A stretch of DNA of 64,000 nucleotides, from the NCBI RefSeq assembly GCF_053078305.1, contig NZ_CP166879.1; one strand, written 5' to 3'. The notes beneath the pieces were generated by a model, which worked only from the letters and a program-made list of their open reading frames with translations, ran no database searches and was not told where the DNA came from. The number at the start of each line of letters is the position of its first letter. Position 1 is the first letter of the stretch. A program made the translations under genes and the position numbers. This document shows positions 16,911-54,937 of this stretch, piece by piece.

Positions 16911-16946
16911 ATCAATAAAAAAGGCCCCCCGATTTGGGAGGCCTTA
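16911..16946 (-). terminator. pheA attenuator (leader terminator)
   Basis: AAGGCCCCCCGATTTGGGAGGCCTT GC-rich hairpin with a U-run on the minus strand, between pheL and pheA. Confidence 0.85.
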
Positions 16947-16991
16947 TTGTTCGTCTTCGCATTCTGTTTCACACGACGAAACGCCTCCCAT

Positions 16992-17039
16992 TCAGGGGAA
17001 GGTAAAAAAGAATGCGAAGAAAAACGGTGTGTGTTTCAT
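16992..17039 (-). CDS. pheL: pheA leader peptide, 15 aa MKHTPFFFAFFFTFP (below the ORF-track size cutoff)
   Basis: Minus-strand ATGAAACACACACCGTTTTTCTTCGCATTCTTTTTTACCTTCCCCTGA; seven Phe codons in 15. Confidence 0.9.
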   Translation of the reverse strand: MKHTPFFFAFFFTFP

Positions 17040-17142
17040 GTTTGTTTCCTTAAGTGACTTTAGTACAGTACCCGTACTGTTTTCACGCTGTCAACAAAAA
17101 ACGCGCCCGAAGGCGCGTTGGCGATACACTCAATATAAAGGA

Positions 17143-20335: not shown

Positions 20336-20395
20336 CCTAAAGAATCAAGACGATCCGGTACGCGTGATTTTCTTTTCACATTAATCTGGTCAATA

Positions 20396-20427
20396 ACCTT
20401 GAATAATTGAGGGATGACCTCATTTAA
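20396..20427 (+). promoter_or_regulatory. sigma32 heat-shock promoter of clpB
   Basis: CCTTGAATAA (-35), 13-bp spacer, CCTCATTTA (-10), about 40 bp upstream of the clpB start. Confidence 0.75.
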
Positions 20428-20464
20428 TCTCCAGTAGCAACTTTGATCCGTTATGGGAGGAGTT

Positions 20465-23038
20465 ATGCGTCTGGATCGTCTTACTAATAAATTCCAGCTT
20501 GCTCTTGCCGATGCCCAATCACTTGCACTCGGGCACGACAACCAATTCATCGAACCACTTCATTTAATGAGCGCCCTGCTGAATCAGGAAGGGGGTTCGG
20601 TTAGTCCTTTGTTAACATCAGCTGGCATAAATGCTGGCCAGTTGCGCACAGATATCAATCAGGCATTAAATCGTTTACCGCAGGTTGAAGGTACTGGTGG
20701 TGATGTCCAGCCATCACAGGATCTGGTGCGCGTTCTTAATCTTTGCGACAAGCTGGCGCAAAAACGTGGTGATAACTTTATCTCGTCAGAACTGTTCGTT
20801 CTGGCGGCACTTGAGTCTCGCGGCACGCTGGCCGACATCCTGAAAGCAGCAGGGGCGACCACCGCCAACATTACTCAAGCGATTGAACAAATGCGTGGAG
20901 GTGAAAGCGTGAACGATCAAGGTGCTGAAGACCAACGTCAGGCTTTGAAAAAATATACCATCGACCTTACCGAACGAGCCGAACAGGGCAAACTCGATCC
21001 GGTGATTGGTCGTGATGAAGAAATTCGCCGTACCATTCAGGTGCTGCAACGTCGTACTAAAAATAACCCGGTACTGATTGGTGAACCCGGCGTCGGTAAA
21101 ACTGCCATCGTTGAAGGTCTGGCGCAGCGTATTATCAACGGCGAAGTGCCGGAAGGGTTGAAAGGCCGCCGGGTACTGGCGCTGGATATGGGCGCGCTGG
21201 TGGCTGGGGCGAAATATCGCGGTGAGTTTGAAGAACGTTTAAAAGGCGTGCTTAACGATCTTGCCAAACAGGAAGGCAACGTCATCCTGTTTATCGACGA
21301 ATTACATACCATGGTCGGCGCGGGTAAAGCCGATGGCGCAATGGACGCCGGAAACATGCTGAAACCGGCGCTGGCGCGTGGTGAATTGCACTGCGTAGGT
21401 GCCACGACGCTTGACGAATATCGCCAGTACATTGAAAAAGATGCTGCGCTGGAACGTCGTTTCCAGAAAGTGTTTGTTGCCGAGCCTTCTGTTGAAGATA
21501 CCATTGCGATTCTACGTGGCCTGAAAGAACGTTACGAATTGCACCACCATGTGCAAATTACTGACCCGGCAATTGTTGCAGCGGCGACGTTGTCTCATCG
21601 CTACATTGCTGACCGTCAGCTGCCGGATAAAGCCATCGACCTGATCGATGAAGCAGCATCCAGCATTCGTATGCAGATTGACTCAAAACCAGAAGAACTC
21701 GACCGACTCGATCGCCGTATCATCCAGCTCAAACTGGAACAACAGGCGTTAATGAAAGAGTCTGATGAAGCCAGTAAAAAACGCCTGGATATGCTCAACG
21801 AAGAACTGAGCGACAAAGAACGTCAGTACTCCGAGTTAGAAGAAGAGTGGAAAGCAGAGAAGGCATCGCTTTCTGGTACGCAGACCATTAAAGCGGAACT
21901 GGAACAGGCGAAAATCGCTATTGAACAGGCTCGCCGTGTGGGGGACCTGGCGCGGATGTCTGAACTGCAATACGGCAAAATCCCGGAACTGGAAAAGCAA
22001 CTGGAAGCCGCAACGCAGCTCGAAGGCAAAACTATGCGTCTGTTGCGTAATAAAGTGACCGACGCCGAAATTGCTGAAGTGCTGGCGCGTTGGACGGGGA
22101 TTCCGGTTTCTCGCATGATGGAAAGCGAGCGCGAAAAACTGCTGCGTATGGAGCAAGAACTGCACCATCGCGTAATTGGTCAGAACGAAGCGGTTGATGC
22201 GGTATCTAACGCTATTCGTCGTAGCCGTGCGGGGCTGGCGGATCCAAATCGCCCGATTGGTTCATTCCTGTTCCTCGGCCCAACTGGTGTGGGGAAAACA
22301 GAGCTTTGTAAGGCGCTGGCGAACTTTATGTTTGATAGCGACGAGGCGATGGTCCGTATCGATATGTCCGAGTTTATGGAGAAACACTCGGTGTCTCGTC
22401 TGGTTGGTGCGCCTCCGGGATATGTTGGTTATGAAGAAGGTGGCTACCTGACCGAAGCTGTGCGTCGTCGTCCGTATTCCGTTATCCTGCTGGATGAAGT
22501 GGAAAAAGCGCATCCGGATGTCTTCAACATTCTGTTGCAGGTACTGGATGATGGGCGTCTGACTGACGGGCAGGGGAGAACGGTCGACTTCCGTAATACG
22601 GTTGTCATTATGACCTCTAACCTCGGTTCCGATTTGATTCAGGAACGCTTCGGTGAACTGGATTATGCGCACATGAAAGAGCTGGTGCTCGGTGTGGTTA
22701 GCCATAACTTCCGTCCGGAATTCATTAACCGTATCGATGAAGTGGTGGTCTTCCATCCGCTGGGTGAACAGCACATTGCGTCGATTGCGCAGATTCAGTT
22801 GAAACGTCTGTATAAACGTCTGGAAGAACGTGGTTATGAAATCCACATTTCTGACGAGGCGCTGAAACTGCTGAGCGAGAACGGTTACGATCCGGTCTAT
22901 GGTGCACGTCCTCTGAAACGTGCAATTCAGCAGCAGATCGAAAACCCGCTGGCACAGCAAATACTGTCTGGTGAATTGGTTCCGGGTAAAGTGATTCGCC
23001 TGGAAGTTAATGAAGACCGGATTGTCGCCGTCCAGTAA
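20465..23038 (+). CDS. clpB: Chaperone ClpB (AAA+ disaggregase)
   Basis: [27 protein letters not shown]...; two AAA+ modules (GEPGVGKT and GPTGVGKT); 857 aa from the ATG at 20465. Confidence 0.96.
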
Positions 23039-23481: not shown

Positions 23482-25023
<1,542 letters not shown>

Positions 25024-25108
25024 CCTTAAAGAAGCGTACTTTGCAGTGCTCACACAGATTGTCTGATAGAAAGTGAAAAGCAAGGCGTCTTGCGAAGCAG
25101 ACTGATAC

Positions 25109-25184
25109 GTCCCCTTCGTCTAGAGGCCCAGGACACCGCCCTTTCACGGCGGTAACAGGGGTTCGAATCCCCTAGGGGACGCCA
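25109..25184 (+). tRNA. gltW: tRNA-Glu (UUC) in the 16S-23S spacer
   Basis: GTCCCCTTCGTCTAGAGGCCCAGGACACCGCCCTTTCACGGCGGTAACAGGGGTTCGAATCCCCTAGGGGACGCCA, 76 nt with CCA end. Confidence 0.97.
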
Positions 25185-25377
25185 CTTGCTGGTTTGTGAG
25201 TGAAAGTCACCTGCCTTAATATCTCAAAACTCATCTTCGGGTGATGTTTGAGATATTTGCTCTTTAAAAATCTGGATCAAGCTGAAAATTGAAACACTGA
25301 ACAACGAGAGTTGTTCGTGAGTCTCTCAAATTTTCGCAACACGATGATGAATCGAAAGAAACATCTTCGGGTTGTGA

Positions 25378-28280
<2,903 letters not shown>

Positions 28281-28373
28281 ACAACGCCGAAGATGTTTTG
28301 GCGGATTGAGAGAAGATTTTCAGCCTGATACAGATTAAATCAGAACGCAGAAGCGGTCTGATAAAACAGAATT

Positions 28374-28493
28374 TGCCTGGCGGCCTTAGCGCGGTGGTCC
28401 CACCTGAACCCATGCCGAACTCAGAAGTGAAACGCCGTAGCGCCGATGGTAGTGTGGGGTCTCCCCATGCGAGAGTAGGGAACTGCCAGGCAT
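28374..28493 (+). rRNA. rrfG: 5S ribosomal RNA
   Basis: TGCCTGGCGGCC...GGGAACTGCCAGGCAT, 120 nt. Confidence 0.97.
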
Positions 28494-45630: not shown

Positions 45631-46586
45631 TGAAGCAACTTTGGTTTGCCATGTCATTAGTGACAGGTAGCCTGTTATTCTCTGCTAACGCCTCGGCCAC
45701 TCCCGCGTCCGGGGCGTTATTACAGCAGATGAACCTGGCCAGTCAGTCACTGAATTACGAGCTGTCATTCATCAGCATCAATAAACAGGGTGTTGAGTCT
45801 CTGCGTTATCGACATGCACGCCTCGATAACCGTCCTCTTGCACAATTGTTGCAAATGGATGGCCCGCGCCGGGAAGTGGTACAGCGCGGCAATGAAATCA
45901 GCTATTTTGAACCGGGCCTTGAACCGTTTACTCTTAATGGCGATTACATTGTTGATTCTCTGCCATCGCTCATCTATACCGATTTCAAACGCCTTTCTCC
46001 TTACTACGACTTTATCTCCGTCGGGCGCACGCGTATTGCTGATCGTCTTTGTGAAGTTATTCGCGTGGTTGCTCGTGATGGCACACGCTACAGCTACATC
46101 GTGTGGATGGACACCGAATCGAAATTACCGATGCGGGTTGATCTTCTTGATCGCGATGGTGAAACGCTGGAACAATTTCGCGTGATTGCTTTTAACGTCA
46201 ATCAGGATATCAGCAGCAGTATGCAGACGCTGGCGAAGGCAAATTTGCCGCCGTTGCTTTCTGTTCCTGTAGGTGAAAAAGCTAAATTCAGCTGGACGCC
46301 AACCTGGTTGCCACAGGGTTTTAGCGAAGTTTCCAGTAGTCGACGTCCGCTACCGACGATGGACAACATGCCTATCGAATCACGTCTCTATTCCGACGGA
46401 TTATTCAGCTTCTCGGTAAACGTTAACCGCGCTACGCCATCGAGCACCGATCAGATGTTGCGCACCGGACGCAGAACCGTCAGTACAAGCGTACGTGATA
46501 ACGCTGAAATCACCATTGTCGGTGAACTGCCGCCGCAAACGGCGAAACGCATTGCCGAGAATATTAAGTTCGGGGCAGCGCAATGA
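45630..46586 (+). CDS. rseB: SigmaE regulatory protein RseB
   Basis: 318-aa ORF with signal peptide. Confidence 0.95.
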   Translation: MKQLWFAMSLVTGSLLFSANASATPASGALLQQMNLASQSLNYELSFISINKQGVESLRYRHARLDNRPLAQLLQMDGPRREVVQRGNEISYFEPGLEPFTLNGDYIVDSLPSLIYTDFKRLSPYYDFISVGRTRIADRLCEVIRVVARDGTRYSYIVWMDTESKLPMRVDLLDRDGETLEQFRVIAFNVNQDISSSMQTLAKANLPPLLSVPVGEKAKFSWTPTWLPQGFSEVSSSRRPLPTMDNMPIESRLYSDGLFSFSVNVNRATPSSTDQMLRTGRRTVSTSVRDNAEITIVGELPPQTAKRIAENIKFGAAQ

Positions 46587-47062
46587 TCAAAGAGTGGGCT
46601 ACCGTCGTCTCCTGGCAAAACGGGCAGGCGCTGGTCAGTTGTGATGTTAAAGCCTCATGCAGCAGCTGCGCTTCACGCGCCGGTTGCGGTAGCCGCGTGT
46701 TGAATAAACTTGGCCCGCAAACCACGCATACCATTGTCGTACCCTGTGATGAGCCGTTAGTGCCGGGGCAAAAAGTGGAATTGGGGATCGCCGAAGGCAG
46801 CCTGCTTAGCTCCGCATTACTGGTTTATATGTCGCCGCTGGTGGGATTATTCCTCATCGCTTCGCTATTTCAGCTACTCTTTGCTTCTGACGTCGCAGCA
46901 TTATGTGGTGCGGTCCTCGGCGGTATTGGCGGGTTCCTGATTGCGCGTGGCTACTCGCGTAAGTTTGCTGCCCGGGCAGAATGGCAACCGATCATCTTAA
47001 GCGTGGCATTGCCGCCTGGCCTTGTGCGATTTGAAACATCTTCGGAAGACGCGAGCCAGTGA
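46583..47062 (+). CDS. rseC: SigmaE regulatory protein RseC
   Basis: 159-aa ORF overlapping the rseB stop. Confidence 0.93.
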   Translation: MIKEWATVVSWQNGQALVSCDVKASCSSCASRAGCGSRVLNKLGPQTTHTIVVPCDEPLVPGQKVELGIAEGSLLSSALLVYMSPLVGLFLIASLFQLLFASDVAALCGAVLGGIGGFLIARGYSRKFAARAEWQPIILSVALPPGLVRFETSSEDASQ

Positions 47063-47259
47063 TTTCACTGGCTTTGTTGCATTTTGCATAACAAATGCGA
47101 GGACGTTTCCAGATACCACAATCCATACGGTATGAACATTTCCTCGCCTCAATGTTGTAGTGTAGAATGCGGCGTTTCTATTAATACAGACGTTAAGCTC
47201 AGAACAGCGACTTCTAAAAGCCTGGTTAACCGGGCATTAAGGCACAATAATCATACTTT

Positions 47260-49059
<1,800 letters not shown>

Positions 49060-50101: not shown

Positions 50102-50291
50102 ATGAGATAAATCTCCCGTGGCTAACGACATCCCCCGTCGTTGTGTATAGAATATTCCCCCGAAGTTTAAGGTTGGCACCTCCAGGTTGCCACGGCACAC
50201 GAAACAGCGTTGGTCCCCATATACCGCTAAACTGAAACTGCAGCGAAGCAGTTAGCAGAGCCATGTATATCAGGTCTGTTTCGTGTGCTGA

Positions 50292-51904
<1,613 letters not shown>

Positions 51905-53767: not shown

Positions 53768-53791
53768 AAATAATACCGTTCTCTTTAAAAA

Positions 53792-53835
53792 GTAAAACCC
53801 CCGAACTGGTAAGGAACGGGGGTTTTACTTTGTAA
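53792..53835 (+). terminator. acpS operon terminator
   Basis: GTAAAACCCCCG...CGGGGGTTTTAC hairpin followed by TTTGTAACTTT. Confidence 0.8.
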
Positions 53836-53844
53836 CTTTAATTT

Positions 53845-53868
53845 AGTGCAGCACGCACCCTCAACAAC
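53845..53868. repeat. 24-nt element, copy 1 of an imperfect direct repeat (second copy at 54093-54116)
   Basis: AGTGCAGCACGCACCCTCAACAAC; contains the internal palindrome GTGC...GCAC. Confidence 0.6.
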
Positions 53869-54092
53869 AGCGATTATGGATCAGGGTAGTTATCTTTTAC
53901 AAGCAACTTGCAATCTTTATCATAAAAACTCGAGCCTTTACGAAGAAAGCGATATTGATGGCAAGATTAACGTGACCGCCAATTCGTAAGTACATTAAAA
54001 TTGGTTTCGTTATTGGCGATTTTGCTGTGCTTTACACCATGCCACAGAATTCCCCCATTGAAACGAGTGGTGTCGTCAAAGCTCTGGTGTGG

Positions 54093-54116
54093 AGTGCAGC
54101 ATGCACCCTCAATAAC
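54093..54116. repeat. 24-nt element, copy 2 of the direct repeat, in the shoB upstream region
   Basis: AGTGCAGCATGCACCCTCAATAAC; 22 of 24 positions identical to copy 1. Confidence 0.6.
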
Positions 54117-54187
54117 TCGCACGTTCAGTTTTGGGGAGATGTAAGGGCTAATCTGAACGGCTGCATTCCTTGTTTAAGGAAAAACGA

Positions 54188-54268
54188 ATGACTGATTGCC
54201 GATACCTTATTAAACGGGCCATCAAAATCATCATTGCTGTTTTACAGCTGATCCTTCTGTTCTTATAA
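54188..54268 (+). CDS. shoB: Type I toxin ShoB, 26-aa hydrophobic peptide (below the ORF-track size cutoff)
   Basis: ATGACTGATTGCCGATACCTTATTAAACGG... translates to MTDCRYLIKRAIKIIIAVLQLILLFL; in the acpS-yfhL interval where shoB/ohsC lies in K-12. Confidence 0.85.
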   Translation: MTDCRYLIKRAIKIIIAVLQLILLFL

Positions 54269-54285
54269 CACAAGGAAACGTACTT

Positions 54286-54322
54286 AAGGTGCGTCCGGTG
54301 AACCAGTCGGACGCACCTTTAA
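54286..54322 (+). terminator. Putative shoB transcript terminator or stabilising hairpin
   Basis: AAGGTGCGTCCGGTGAACCAGTCGGACGCACCTT hairpin followed by a short T/A tract. Confidence 0.55.
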
Positions 54323-54462
54323 TAACTATAAATAAGTGTCTGGGCAGATACTATATAAATTAACTTAGTGAATGTTTATGCTAATAATCATCAATTAAAT
54401 AAATATAATAGCGTTAAGGTTTCCCTATAAAATAATTAATACTCTACTTCAGGAGCAGAATA

Positions 54463-54732
<270 letters not shown>

Positions 54733-54937
54733 TTACCGTTAAATTATTTTAAAATCAGTAAGTTGTATCGAGTTTGTATGCTTTACAGTTATTAACTTAC
54801 TGTATGTTGATCCAGTGTATTTAACCTTGATAAACTCAGTCCAGCAACACAAAACCGCAACACATTGCATTTTGTCCCGTAGAAAAGACTTGTATGTGTG
54901 AGCTTGTTTTCTGCGCCTACGCAGATAAGGATTGAGA

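What the first reader, a model, noticed from the sequence alone, without database searches (positions are those of the whole stretch)
53845..54116. Pair of 24-nt near-identical direct repeats with internal palindrome flanking the shoB upstream region
AGTGCAGCACGCACCCTCAACAAC (53845-53868) and AGTGCAGCATGCACCCTCAATAAC (54093-54116) are identical at 22 of 24 positions and lie about 250 bp apart. Each contains GTGC...GCAC, capable of a short hairpin. Their position suggests they are transcript 5-prime features or regulatory elements of the divergent shoB/ohsC pair, or the base-pairing region duplicated between the two RNAs.
Basis: seen in the sequence. Interest (0 to 1): 0.35.

Follow-up and report, generated by a model that had tools for sequence, protein, structure and literature searches.

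The report
OhsC–shoB antisense pairing-site repeat
The two 24-base repeats are the already-described matching sequences through which the small RNA OhsC binds and silences the mRNA of the toxic peptide ShoB in E. coli, so the finding is real but ordinary; the one extra observation is that the two copies have changed together across E. coli strains.

Summary
The repeat is real: 53845-53868 and 54093-54116 match at 22/24 positions, 248 bp apart, with none expected by chance. The window is E. coli chromosome, acpS–ohsC–shoB–yfhL.

Copy 1 is the first 21 nt of the antitoxin sRNA OhsC (minus strand, Rfam RF02495, 103 bits) plus 3 promoter-side bases. Copy 2 lies in the shoB 5' UTR, about 74 nt upstream of the ATG. 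The genes are divergent, so complementary RNAs read as a direct DNA repeat. This is the published OhsC–shoB pairing region (19 nt in K-12).

Both mismatches here are C (ohsC) over T (shoB), which are G·U wobbles, so this strain can form a 21-bp duplex.

Across 98 loci, pairing compatibility is 93-100% at positions 2-21 (64% at position 11). It collapses exactly at the OhsC +1.

About 31% of 5,426 E. coli genomes carry a second allele. In it the block ACCCT has become GATTC in both copies.

Folding predicts that the 5' end of shoB mRNA masks the site until the published +40 processing.

The co-varying alleles and the cis-masking are modest additions.

The parts
53789..53865 (-). ohsC gene, encoding the antitoxin sRNA OhsC. 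Its 5' end (+1) is at 53865. It carries a small 5' hairpin and a long terminator hairpin.
   Evidence: Rfam RF02495 ohsC_RNA, 103.1 bits against a gathering score of 50, full model 1-77. The K-12 RefSeq ncRNA ohsC aligns to the same start.
53845..53868 (.). Repeat copy 1. 53845-53865 encodes OhsC nt 21-1, the pairing region. 53866-53868 (AAC) lies between the ohsC -10 box and +1 and is not transcribed.
   Evidence: The boundary of co-conservation falls at position 21, which is OhsC +1.
53873..53902 (-). ohsC promoter: -35 TTGTAA at 53902-53897 and -10 CATAAT at 53878-53873.
   Evidence: Promoter scan. The same hexamers are listed for ohsC in PMC11264685 Table 2.
53972..54001 (+). shoB promoter: -35 GTGACC and -10 TAAAAT. 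The inferred transcription start is about 54008.
   Evidence: Promoter scan. The same hexamers are listed in PMC11264685 Table 2. The distance from 54008 to the terminator is about 323 nt, which agrees with the published full-length transcript of about 320 nt (PMC5668327).
54009..54039 (+). 5'-terminal segment of the primary shoB mRNA (nt 2-32). It is a degenerate inverted third copy that is predicted to pair with nt 78-109 and mask copy 2. The published +40 processing removes it.
   Evidence: MFE and partition-function folds. Helix energy is -35 to -39 kcal/mol. 96.2% of cells are paired, against 27-48% for slid controls, with GC<->AU and GU/GC/AU variation at two pairs. This is a prediction only.
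54093..54116 (+). Repeat copy 2. 54093-54113 is the OhsC target site in the shoB 5' UTR (mRNA nt 86-106). It lies 62 nt upstream of the RBS and 74 nt upstream of the ATG.
   Evidence: RNAduplex and cofold place a contiguous 21-bp duplex here. The site co-varies with copy 1 across strains.
54176..54268 (+). shoB RBS (AAGGAA, 54176-54181) and ShoB ORF (54188-54268, 26 aa, MTDCRYLIKRAIKIIIAVLQLILLFL).
   Evidence: RefSeq annotation of the 100%-identical strain XH990: 'type I toxin-antitoxin system toxin ShoB', WP_000128773.1. ORF list.
54281..54324 (+). shoB terminator hairpin.
   Evidence: Inverted repeat I2, 17-nt arms, 88% complementary. It is present in the folds.
53785..53835 (.). Near-palindromic hairpin that serves as the OhsC terminator and, on the other strand, follows the acpS stop codon (probably a bidirectional terminator).
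   Evidence: Inverted repeat I1, 19-nt arms, 95% complementary. It forms the 3' stem of the Rfam model. A sub-threshold plus-strand ohsC hit (37.6 bits) reflects the palindromy.

Best explanation

Shown or strongly supported:
- Copy 1 encodes the first 21 nt of OhsC.
- Copy 2 is the matching site in the long shoB 5' UTR, about 74 nt upstream of the start codon.
- In this strain the two inter-copy differences are G·U wobbles, which allows a continuous 21-bp duplex.

Inferred mechanism, by analogy with tisB/istR-1 and zorO/orzO and from folding:
- The primary shoB transcript is inert because its own 5'-terminal ~32 nt pair with the region containing copy 2, and the RBS is in a stem.
- Cleavage at about +40 frees the site, which then serves as a ribosome standby or entry region.
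- OhsC nucleates with its single-stranded 5' tail (GUUGA) on the accessible UCAAU and zips up 20-21 bp, opening its small 5' hairpin.
- The duplex blocks standby ribosomes and is cut by RNase III, so ShoB is not made.
For: OhsC identity and its 5' end:
- Rfam RF02495 scores 103 bits at 53789-53865 on the minus strand.
- The K-12 ncRNA annotation starts at repeat position 21.

ShoB identity:
- RefSeq annotation in a 100%-identical strain.

Literature:
- The OhsC 5' end shares 19 nt of complementarity with the shoB 5' UTR (PMC3919570).
- ShoB toxicity is abolished by OhsC, and there are full-length (~320 nt) and processed (~280 nt) transcripts, of which only the processed form is translated (PMC5668327, PMC5397157, PMC7708055).
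- RNase III cleavage was detected in vivo in the putative shoB/OhsC duplex region (PMC6212723).

Duplex prediction:
- OhsC nt 1-30 against shoB mRNA gives -42.6 kcal/mol with 21 contiguous pairs at the repeat. Shuffled OhsC gives -20.4 ± 2.5, with a best value of -30.2.
- Cofold gives 21 intermolecular bp. The net gain is -21.7 kcal/mol on the +40 form and -10.9 on the full-length form.

Comparative evidence:
- In 98 loci (14 distinct haplotype pairs), WC/GU compatibility is 93-100% at positions 2-21, except 64% at position 11. It drops to 0-57% immediately outside, and the edge falls at OhsC +1.
- The type B allele changes ACCCT to GATTC and T to C at position 10 identically in both copies.
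- Between alleles A and B, the transcribed regions differ only in the OhsC pairing nt (7/21), the shoB target (7/21), and shoB nt 9-11 and nt 39. There are 0 differences in 318 nt of the other RNA parts.
- Marginal counts in 5,426 genomes match. Type A: ohsC 3,709 and shoB 3,692. Type B: ohsC 1,693 and shoB 1,676.
- Position 10 shows the states A-U, G·U and G-C, and never A·C.
Against: - Nothing was tested experimentally here. Duplex formation, the standby mechanism and the cis-masking helix are predictions or analogies.
- The primary paper (Fozo 2008) could not be read, so its content is cited through later papers.
- The shoB transcription start is inferred from the published -10 box and the transcript length. 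No TSS data were read.
- Type B keeps a central U·U mismatch, giving a 9+9 bp duplex plus a G·U, so perfect pairing is not required or not maintained.
- The A/B covariation is essentially one evolutionary event in tightly linked sites 248 bp apart. Gene conversion between the copies could also produce it.
- The cis-helix energies are barely allele-specific in swap tests (-38.5 against -38.8 kcal/mol).
Confidence: 0.92

Rival explanations
1. The repeats are DNA-level operator sites: two copies of a binding site for a transcription factor (for example CpxR, which regulates both genes) that bracket the divergent promoters.
For: CpxR regulates shoB and ohsC through two boxes in this locus (PMC9600279, PMC11264685). 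The repeats flank the intergenic promoter region.
Against: - Both copies lie inside the transcripts, downstream of the promoters, rather than over them.
- The published CB2 box overlaps the ohsC -35, which is between the repeats (PMC11264685).
- The repeat has no GTAAA-N5-GTAAA CpxR-type motif (known consensus; sequence read directly).
- Inter-copy differences are wobble-compatible in the RNA sense: C/T only, and never T/C. A DNA-binding model does not predict this.
- Co-conservation stops exactly at OhsC +1.
Confidence: 0.02
2. The same pairing module works through a different downstream mechanism. OhsC blocks translation of an upstream leader ORF (54027/54039-54191) whose stop codon overlaps the shoB ATG (ATGA), and ShoB synthesis is translationally coupled to that ORF, as in hok/mok/sok, rather than through a ribosome standby site.
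For: A 54-aa ORF (GTG start; 50 aa from the ATG) spans the OhsC target and ends in a TGA overlapping the shoB ATG. It stays open in type B, where AGT GCA GCA CTC GAT TCC reads through with no stop (sequence read directly).
Against: - Both start codons (mRNA nt 20 and 32) are removed by the +40 processing that yields the only translationally active form (PMC5397157, PMC7708055).
- No Shine-Dalgarno sequence is seen upstream of either start.
- Substitutions seen in the UTR are mostly non-synonymous in that frame.
- OhsC binds in the middle of the ORF, not at its initiation region.
Confidence: 0.06
3. The similarity is a passive relic of a local duplication, or is kept uniform by gene conversion between the copies, with no selection for RNA pairing.
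For: A 5-nt block changed identically in both copies, which looks more like one copying event than five paired point mutations. The sites are only 248 bp apart and are inherited together.
Against: - Positions 1 and 21 stay different between the copies in nearly all haplotypes of both alleles, and position 11 differs in all type B haplotypes. Homogenisation is therefore not ongoing.
- Identity ends precisely at the OhsC transcription start.
- All other internal differences keep G·U pairing.
- OhsC functionally represses ShoB (PMC5668327).
- RNase III cuts in the duplex region in vivo (PMC6212723).
Confidence: 0.03
4. The GTGC...GCAC palindrome is the functional unit: each RNA forms a hairpin, and the two interact through loop-loop kissing, or the hairpins are independent stability elements.
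For: OhsC alone is predicted to form a 5-bp hairpin at nt 8-20 with a pairing probability of about 1. This hairpin is part of the Rfam consensus structure. The C/T polymorphism at position 10 keeps it (A-U to G·U).
Against: - The palindrome is destroyed in type B, carried by 31% of genomes. There OhsC forms only a shifted 4-bp GUGU/GCAC hairpin.
- In shoB mRNA the local hairpin is not predicted in either the full-length or the +40 form.
- Co-conservation covers all 20 nt, not only the stem and loop.
- The hairpin is at most an accessory feature of OhsC.
Confidence: 0.05

Closest known systems
ShoB/OhsC type I toxin-antitoxin system of E. coli K-12 (Fozo et al. 2008; Rfam RF02495)
   Same: It is the same locus (acpS–ohsC–shoB–yfhL), with the same divergent arrangement, the same promoters and the same 26-aa toxin apart from V11A. 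The OhsC 5' end is complementary to the shoB 5' UTR.
   Different: K-12 has 19 perfect pairs plus a terminal G·U. This strain's ohsC has T>C at position 10, giving an internal G·U, and T>A at position 1, giving one extra A-U pair. The result is a 21-bp duplex with two wobbles. This ohsC variant is found in 119 of 5,426 complete E. coli genomes.
TisB/IstR-1 (E. coli)
   Same: [quoted passage not shown] The primary transcript is inactive and is activated by 5' processing (+42). The sRNA blocks a ribosome standby site and triggers RNase III cleavage.
   Different: The sequences and toxin are not homologous. tisB is LexA-controlled. Standby binding has been demonstrated for tisB and is only hypothesised for shoB (PMC5397157, PMC7708055).
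ZorO/OrzO and ZorP/OrzP (E. coli O157:H7)
   Same: The arrangement is divergent, with 18-nt pairing between the sRNA 5' end and a ~174-nt 5' UTR and activation by 5' processing. Variation in the pairing region gives target discrimination between paralogous pairs. Fifteen contiguous nt, or 17 nt with one mismatch, suffice for repression (PMC3919570, PMC11264685).
   Different: In zor/orz the discriminating variants coexist as tandem paralogues in one genome. In shoB/ohsC the two predicted specificities (A and B) are alleles of a single-copy locus in different strains.
Hok/Mok/Sok (plasmid R1 and chromosomal copies)
   Same: It is a type I TA system in which the toxin mRNA is kept inert by long-range pairing between its ends, is activated by processing, is silenced by antisense RNA and is cleaved by RNase III. 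An upstream ORF overlaps the toxin start.
   Different: Sok is encoded in cis, overlapping its target, and acts on the mok initiation region. hok is activated by 3' processing. Coupling to a leader ORF is established for hok. For shoB it is unlikely, because +40 processing removes the upstream ORF's start codons.

Membership tests
ShoB/OhsC type I toxin-antitoxin locus | An sRNA matching the OhsC covariance model (sequence plus structure) above Rfam's gathering score | tested here: met
   RF02495 scores 103.1 bits against a gathering score of 50, over the full length 1-77, at 53789-53865 on the minus strand.
ShoB/OhsC type I toxin-antitoxin locus | A 26-aa hydrophobic ShoB ORF with an AAGGAA RBS | tested here: met
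   The ORF at 54188-54268 encodes MTDCRYLIKRAIKIIIAVLQLILLFL. RefSeq calls the identical sequence ShoB, WP_000128773.1. The RBS is at 54176-54181.
ShoB/OhsC type I toxin-antitoxin locus | Divergent, non-overlapping toxin and antitoxin genes in the acpS–yfhL interval | tested here: met
   Annotation of the identical strain and of K-12. 5,425 of 5,426 E. coli genomes match the locus, always on the chromosome.
ShoB/OhsC type I toxin-antitoxin locus | About 19 nt of complementarity between the OhsC 5' end and the shoB 5' UTR | tested here: met
   21 contiguous pairs (19 Watson-Crick and 2 G·U) at -42.6 kcal/mol, against -20.4 ± 2.5 for shuffled OhsC. K-12 has 19 Watson-Crick pairs, as published (PMC3919570).
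ShoB/OhsC type I toxin-antitoxin locus | ShoB overproduction is toxic, and OhsC represses ShoB synthesis | not testable with these tools
   Reported for K-12 (Fozo 2008, as summarised in PMC5668327 and PMC5397157). Not tested for this allele.
Divergent type I TA systems with standby-site control (tisB/istR-1 type) | [quoted passage not shown] | tested here: met
   The target is at 54093-54113, the RBS at 54176 and the ATG at 54188.
Divergent type I TA systems with standby-site control (tisB/istR-1 type) | The primary transcript is translationally inert through 5'-end structure and is activated by 5' processing | tested here: inconclusive
   Folding predicts that nt 2-32 pair with nt 78-109 and that the RBS is in a stem. 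Processing at +40 and the activity of only the processed form are published for K-12 (PMC7708055, PMC5397157). No structure probing is available.
Divergent type I TA systems with standby-site control (tisB/istR-1 type) | 30S standby binding at the antitoxin target site, and competition by the sRNA | not testable with these tools
   Only hypothesised for shoB in the literature (PMC5397157, PMC7708055).
Divergent type I TA systems with standby-site control (tisB/istR-1 type) | RNase III cleavage of the toxin mRNA–antitoxin duplex | not testable with these tools
   In vivo cleavage sites in the putative shoB/OhsC duplex are reported for MG1655 (PMC6212723). The coordinates could not be read because no supplement is held.

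The most novel reading that the evidence does not exclude
The shoB/ohsC locus exists in E. coli as two co-adapted specificity alleles, A (about 68%) and B (about 31%). Their recognition blocks changed in concert in three interacting RNA segments: the OhsC 5' end, the shoB target, and nt 9-11 of the shoB mRNA's own 5' end, which masks the target.

The two alleles are predicted to be mutually non-repressing. Cross-pair duplexes score -21 to -28 kcal/mol, close to the shuffled background, against -34 to -43 kcal/mol for cognate pairs. A recombinant carrying ohsC of one type and shoB of the other would therefore lose antitoxin control, which would make the locus a 250-bp hybrid-incompatibility unit.

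The 2024 survey (PMC11264685) noted the variability of the pairing region but stated that pairing potential could not yet be validated for shoB-ohsC.
Probability: 0.4. Interest if true: 0.45.

Novelty: already known. Interest (0 to 1): 0.22.

Why it matters
The repeat itself adds nothing new. It is the textbook recognition element of a characterised type I toxin-antitoxin pair, and it shows that complementary regions of divergent RNAs look like direct repeats in raw DNA.

The comparative by-products are modestly useful in three ways:
- They give sequence-based support that OhsC–shoB pairing is under selection. The edge of co-conservation falls exactly at the OhsC +1, and only wobble-compatible differences occur.
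- They define four natural ohsC 5'-end variants (three of type A, one of type B) and the two shoB target types they pair with, with population frequencies, which could serve directly as natural compensatory mutants.
- They suggest a concrete structure for the so far unstudied inactive primary shoB transcript.

Tried and rejected
- RNAduplex with full-length OhsC gave long, unrealistic hybrids that involved the terminator stem. I replaced it with OhsC nt 1-30 and with cofold.
- Fozo 2008, Fozo 2012 and the Thomason 2015 dRNA-seq paper are not held. The RNase III paper has no supplement held, and the 2024 survey's supplement is truncated. Published TSS and cleavage coordinates therefore could not be read.
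- The genome-contig scan with a back-translated ShoB N-terminus found only 6 Escherichia species representatives. Two of them, E. albertii and E. whittamii, were cut before the ohsC copy, so their ohsC side could not be examined.
- A swap test for allele-specific cis-masking showed almost no energy difference. The three-way covariation therefore remains a hint.
- The CpxR-box idea for the repeats was rejected on position and motif.
- The simple terminator scan found nothing, because both hairpin loops exceed its 8-nt limit. The hairpins are nevertheless evident.

Full report
**Observation**

- The repeat finder reports the two as a two-copy direct family with 92% identity and 248-bp spacing.
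- A degenerate search allowing three mismatches finds only these two sites in the window, and none in 100 dinucleotide-preserving shuffles.

**Context**

The window is E. coli chromosome. An 801-bp query around the finding is 100% identical to strain XH990 and others, and it matches 5,425 of 5,426 complete E. coli genomes, always on the chromosome. RefSeq annotation gives acpS (+), shoB (+, 'type I toxin-antitoxin system toxin ShoB'), yfhL (-) and yfhH (-). K-12 additionally annotates the ncRNA ohsC between acpS and shoB, on the opposite strand to shoB.

Rfam places OhsC (RF02495) at 53789-53865 on the minus strand, with 103 bits against a gathering score of 50. Reading K-12 in the same orientation shows that its annotated ohsC 5' end is repeat position 21. 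Three things follow.
- Copy 1 is OhsC nt 1-21, plus three bases (AAC, 53866-53868) that lie between the ohsC -10 box (CATAAT, 53878-53873) and +1.
- The shoB promoter hexamers published for E. coli (GTGACC and TAAAAT, PMC11264685 Table 2) are at 53972-53977 and 53996-54001. This gives an inferred start near 54008 and a transcript of about 323 nt to the terminator, matching the published full-length RNA of about 320 nt (PMC5668327).
- Copy 2 is therefore mRNA nt 86-109. It lies 62 nt upstream of the RBS (54176) and 74 nt upstream of the ATG (54188).

**Why a direct repeat**

The two genes are divergent. A segment of shoB mRNA and its complement in OhsC therefore read as the same sequence on the plus strand. 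[quoted passage not shown] It places shoB-ohsC with tisB-istR-1, zor-orz and dinQ-agrB as the divergent type I systems whose antitoxins pair far upstream of the RBS (PMC4147584, PMC5397157).

K-12 indeed has 19 identical bases (positions 2-20). In this window the two inter-copy differences (positions 10 and 21) are both C on the ohsC side and T on the shoB side. These give G·U wobbles in the RNA duplex. Position 1 has become identical, so 21 contiguous pairs can form.
- RNAduplex of OhsC nt 1-30 against the shoB mRNA gives -42.6 kcal/mol at exactly this site. Shuffled OhsC gives -20.4 ± 2.5, with a best value of -30.2.
- Cofolding complete OhsC with the UTR gives 21 intermolecular pairs involving OhsC nt 1-21.

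**Comparative test**

I collected the locus from three sources:
- 12 further E. coli genomes spread over the identity range, plus K-12;
- 6 species-level Escherichia representatives;
- 80 metagenome contigs.

The copies fall into two classes.
- Type A has the shoB target AGTGCAGCATGCACCCTCAAT. Its ohsC side is TGTGCAGCATGCACCCTCAAC (K-12 form, A1), TGTGCAGCACGCACCCTCAAC (A2) or AGTGCAGCACGCACCCTCAAC (this window, A3).
- Type B (O157:H7 and others) has ohsC TGTGCAGCACACGATTCCAAC and shoB AGTGCAGCACTCGATTCCAAT. The block ACCCT has become GATTC in both copies, with one U·U mismatch at position 11.
- No A/B mixed haplotype occurred among 98 loci that carry both copies.

Over the 14 distinct haplotype pairs, Watson-Crick or G·U compatibility is 93-100% at positions 2-21, with 64% at position 11. 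At position 1 it is 7%, at position 0 it is 0%, at positions 22-23 it is 57%, at position 24 it is 29%, and beyond that it is about 0%. The co-conserved unit therefore ends exactly at the OhsC transcription start. Rare variants follow the same rule:
- shoB position 12 T with ohsC C gives G·U;
- shoB position 14 T with ohsC C gives G·U;
- position 10 occurs as T/T, C/T and C/C, but never T/C, which would be A·C.

Exact-variant searches in the 5,426 complete genomes gave the following counts.

| Variant | Genomes |
|---|---|
| shoB target type A | 3,692 |
| shoB target type B | 1,676 |
| ohsC A1 (K-12 form) | 3,084 |
| ohsC A2 | 506 |
| ohsC A3 (this window) | 119 |
| ohsC type B | 1,693 |

The marginal totals agree within 17 genomes for each type. 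The share of type B (about 31%) matches the 33.1% of loci with the TTGTAC ohsC -35 variant in PMC11264685, and that variant is linked to type B in my alignment.

Between the A and B consensus sequences, the transcribed parts differ only in four places:
- OhsC nt 1-21 (7 differences);
- the shoB target (7 differences);
- shoB mRNA nt 9-11;
- shoB mRNA nt 39.

There are no differences in the OhsC 3' part, shoB nt 41-85, shoB nt 107-181, the ORF or the 3' UTR, which together make 318 nt. The promoter intergenic region differs at 25 of 142 positions.

Cross-allele duplexes are predicted at -21 to -28 kcal/mol, close to the shuffled background. Cognate duplexes are -41 to -43 (type A) and -34 (type B). 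[quoted passage not shown] The counts above show that each natural pair keeps 19-21 pairable positions.

**Mechanism**

Established for K-12, from papers I could read:
- OhsC abolishes ShoB toxicity.
- There are full-length (~320 nt) and 5'-processed (~280 nt, '+40') shoB RNAs, and only the processed one is translated (PMC5668327, PMC5397157, PMC7708055).
- RNase III cleavage sites occur in the putative shoB/OhsC duplex in vivo (PMC6212723).
- A standby-ribosome mechanism like that of tisB/IstR-1 is hypothesised, not shown (PMC5397157, PMC7708055).

Folding adds a concrete proposal for the inactive primary transcript.
- In the 323-nt RNA (MFE -103.3 kcal/mol, z = -4.4), nt 16-32 pair with nt 78-94 and nt 2-9 pair with nt 102-109. 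The whole of copy 2 sits in a bipartite helix with the mRNA's own 5' end. The probability of being unpaired is about 0 for repeat positions 1-8. The helix energy is -35 to -39 kcal/mol.
- Across 15 distinct UTR sequences, 96.2% of cells are paired, against 27-48% for slid controls. Pair 9-102 occurs as G·U, G-C and A-U, and pair 11-100 switches from G-C to A-U in type B.
- The 5' end is thus a degenerate inverted third copy of the repeat.
- Removing nt 1-40 frees the site. The predicted net gain from OhsC binding rises from -10.9 to -21.7 kcal/mol in this strain.
- OhsC alone is predicted to have a free 5' tail (nt 1-6), a 5-bp hairpin (nt 8-12 with 16-20) and the terminator stem. The hairpin is in the Rfam consensus structure.
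- The allele-specific block lies mostly in the free tail, which is the likely nucleation site. That last point is an inference.

**The palindrome**

GTGC...GCAC accounts for the OhsC hairpin in type A. It is lost in type B, where only a shifted 4-bp hairpin is predicted. The local hairpin is not predicted in shoB mRNA. It is at most an accessory feature.

**Rivals**

- DNA operator sites. These are unlikely. The CpxR boxes lie between the repeats (PMC11264685, PMC9600279), the repeats are transcribed, and the pattern of differences is RNA-specific.
- Relic duplication or gene conversion without function. This does not explain the sharp boundary at +1, the persistent differences at positions 1, 11 and 21, or the published repression.
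- Leader-ORF coupling. The ORF at 54027/54039-54191 has a TGA overlapping the shoB ATG. This is a possible mechanistic variant, but its start codons are removed in the only active mRNA form.

**Verdict**

Novelty is 'already known'. The window's ohsC variant (2.2% of genomes) is a minor allele with a 21-bp, two-wobble duplex.

The co-varying A/B alleles and the predicted cis-masking helix are modest additions that would need experiments. I could not read Fozo 2008 or Fozo 2012 to check whether they were already noted there.

Noticed in passing
window 54027-54191 (+): An upstream ORF in the shoB 5' UTR (54 aa from GTG 54027, or 50 aa from ATG 54039) spans the OhsC target and ends in a TGA that overlaps the shoB ATG (ATGA). 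It resembles tisA or mok, but both of its start codons lie in the first 40 nt, which processing removes.
   Followed up: partly
window 54009-54039 versus 54085-54116: The extreme 5' end of the shoB mRNA is a degenerate inverted copy of the repeat. It is predicted to mask the OhsC site in the primary transcript. nt 9-11 (54016-54018) form a hypervariable patch (GCG, AAG, GCA, GAG, GTG, GAA) that tracks the allele of the target.
   Followed up: partly
window 53866-54007; loci L009-L013: The intergenic promoter region differs at 25 of 142 positions (17.6%) between allele groups A and B, while the flanking RNA bodies are identical. The ohsC -35 is TTGTAA in type A and TTGTAC in type B.
   Followed up: partly
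window 53896-53923 (+): This is the best sigma-70-like match in the region (TTTACA-16-TATCAT, 10/12). It lies on the shoB strand, upstream of the published shoB promoter, and overlaps the ohsC -35. It is not conserved in type B, and nothing is known about its function.
   Followed up: no
window 53785-53835: A near-palindromic hairpin is shared by the acpS 3' end and ohsC. It probably acts as a bidirectional terminator. It produces a sub-threshold plus-strand ohsC Rfam hit (37.6 bits).
   Followed up: no
L105 895-1592 (E. coli PK8277; also PK8217): An IS1 element is inserted about 125 bp downstream of the shoB stop codon, between shoB and yfhL. The ohsC/shoB pair itself is left intact.
   Followed up: partly
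window 54359-54379 and 54791-54811; 54319-54332 and 54782-54795: A 21-nt direct repeat (86% identity) and a 14-nt inverted repeat bracket yfhL. They may be chance matches.
   Followed up: no
window 16915-17040, 20346-20484, 23482-28491, 46547-47378, 50162-50376: Other Rfam hits in the window: Phe leader (-), RyfD (+), a complete rRNA operon with a spacer tRNA and StyR-44, AsrC antisense to rseC (-), and the rncO leader (+). All are expected for this E. coli region.
   Followed up: no
literature (bioRxiv 10.1101/481986; PMC8081044): Hfq CLASH recovered chimeras between OhsC and the malG 3'UTR-derived sRNA MdoR/MalH. This suggests that OhsC may be sponged or may have a second partner. I did not check which part of OhsC is involved.
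   Followed up: no
L014 (E. albertii), L023 (metagenome), L016 (divergent Escherichia): Further target variants were seen: shoB position 10 C with position 14 T, and shoB position 12 T. Each is matched by ohsC C, giving a G·U pair. The E. albertii and E. whittamii loci were cut before the ohsC copy, so their pairing could not be examined.
   Followed up: partly
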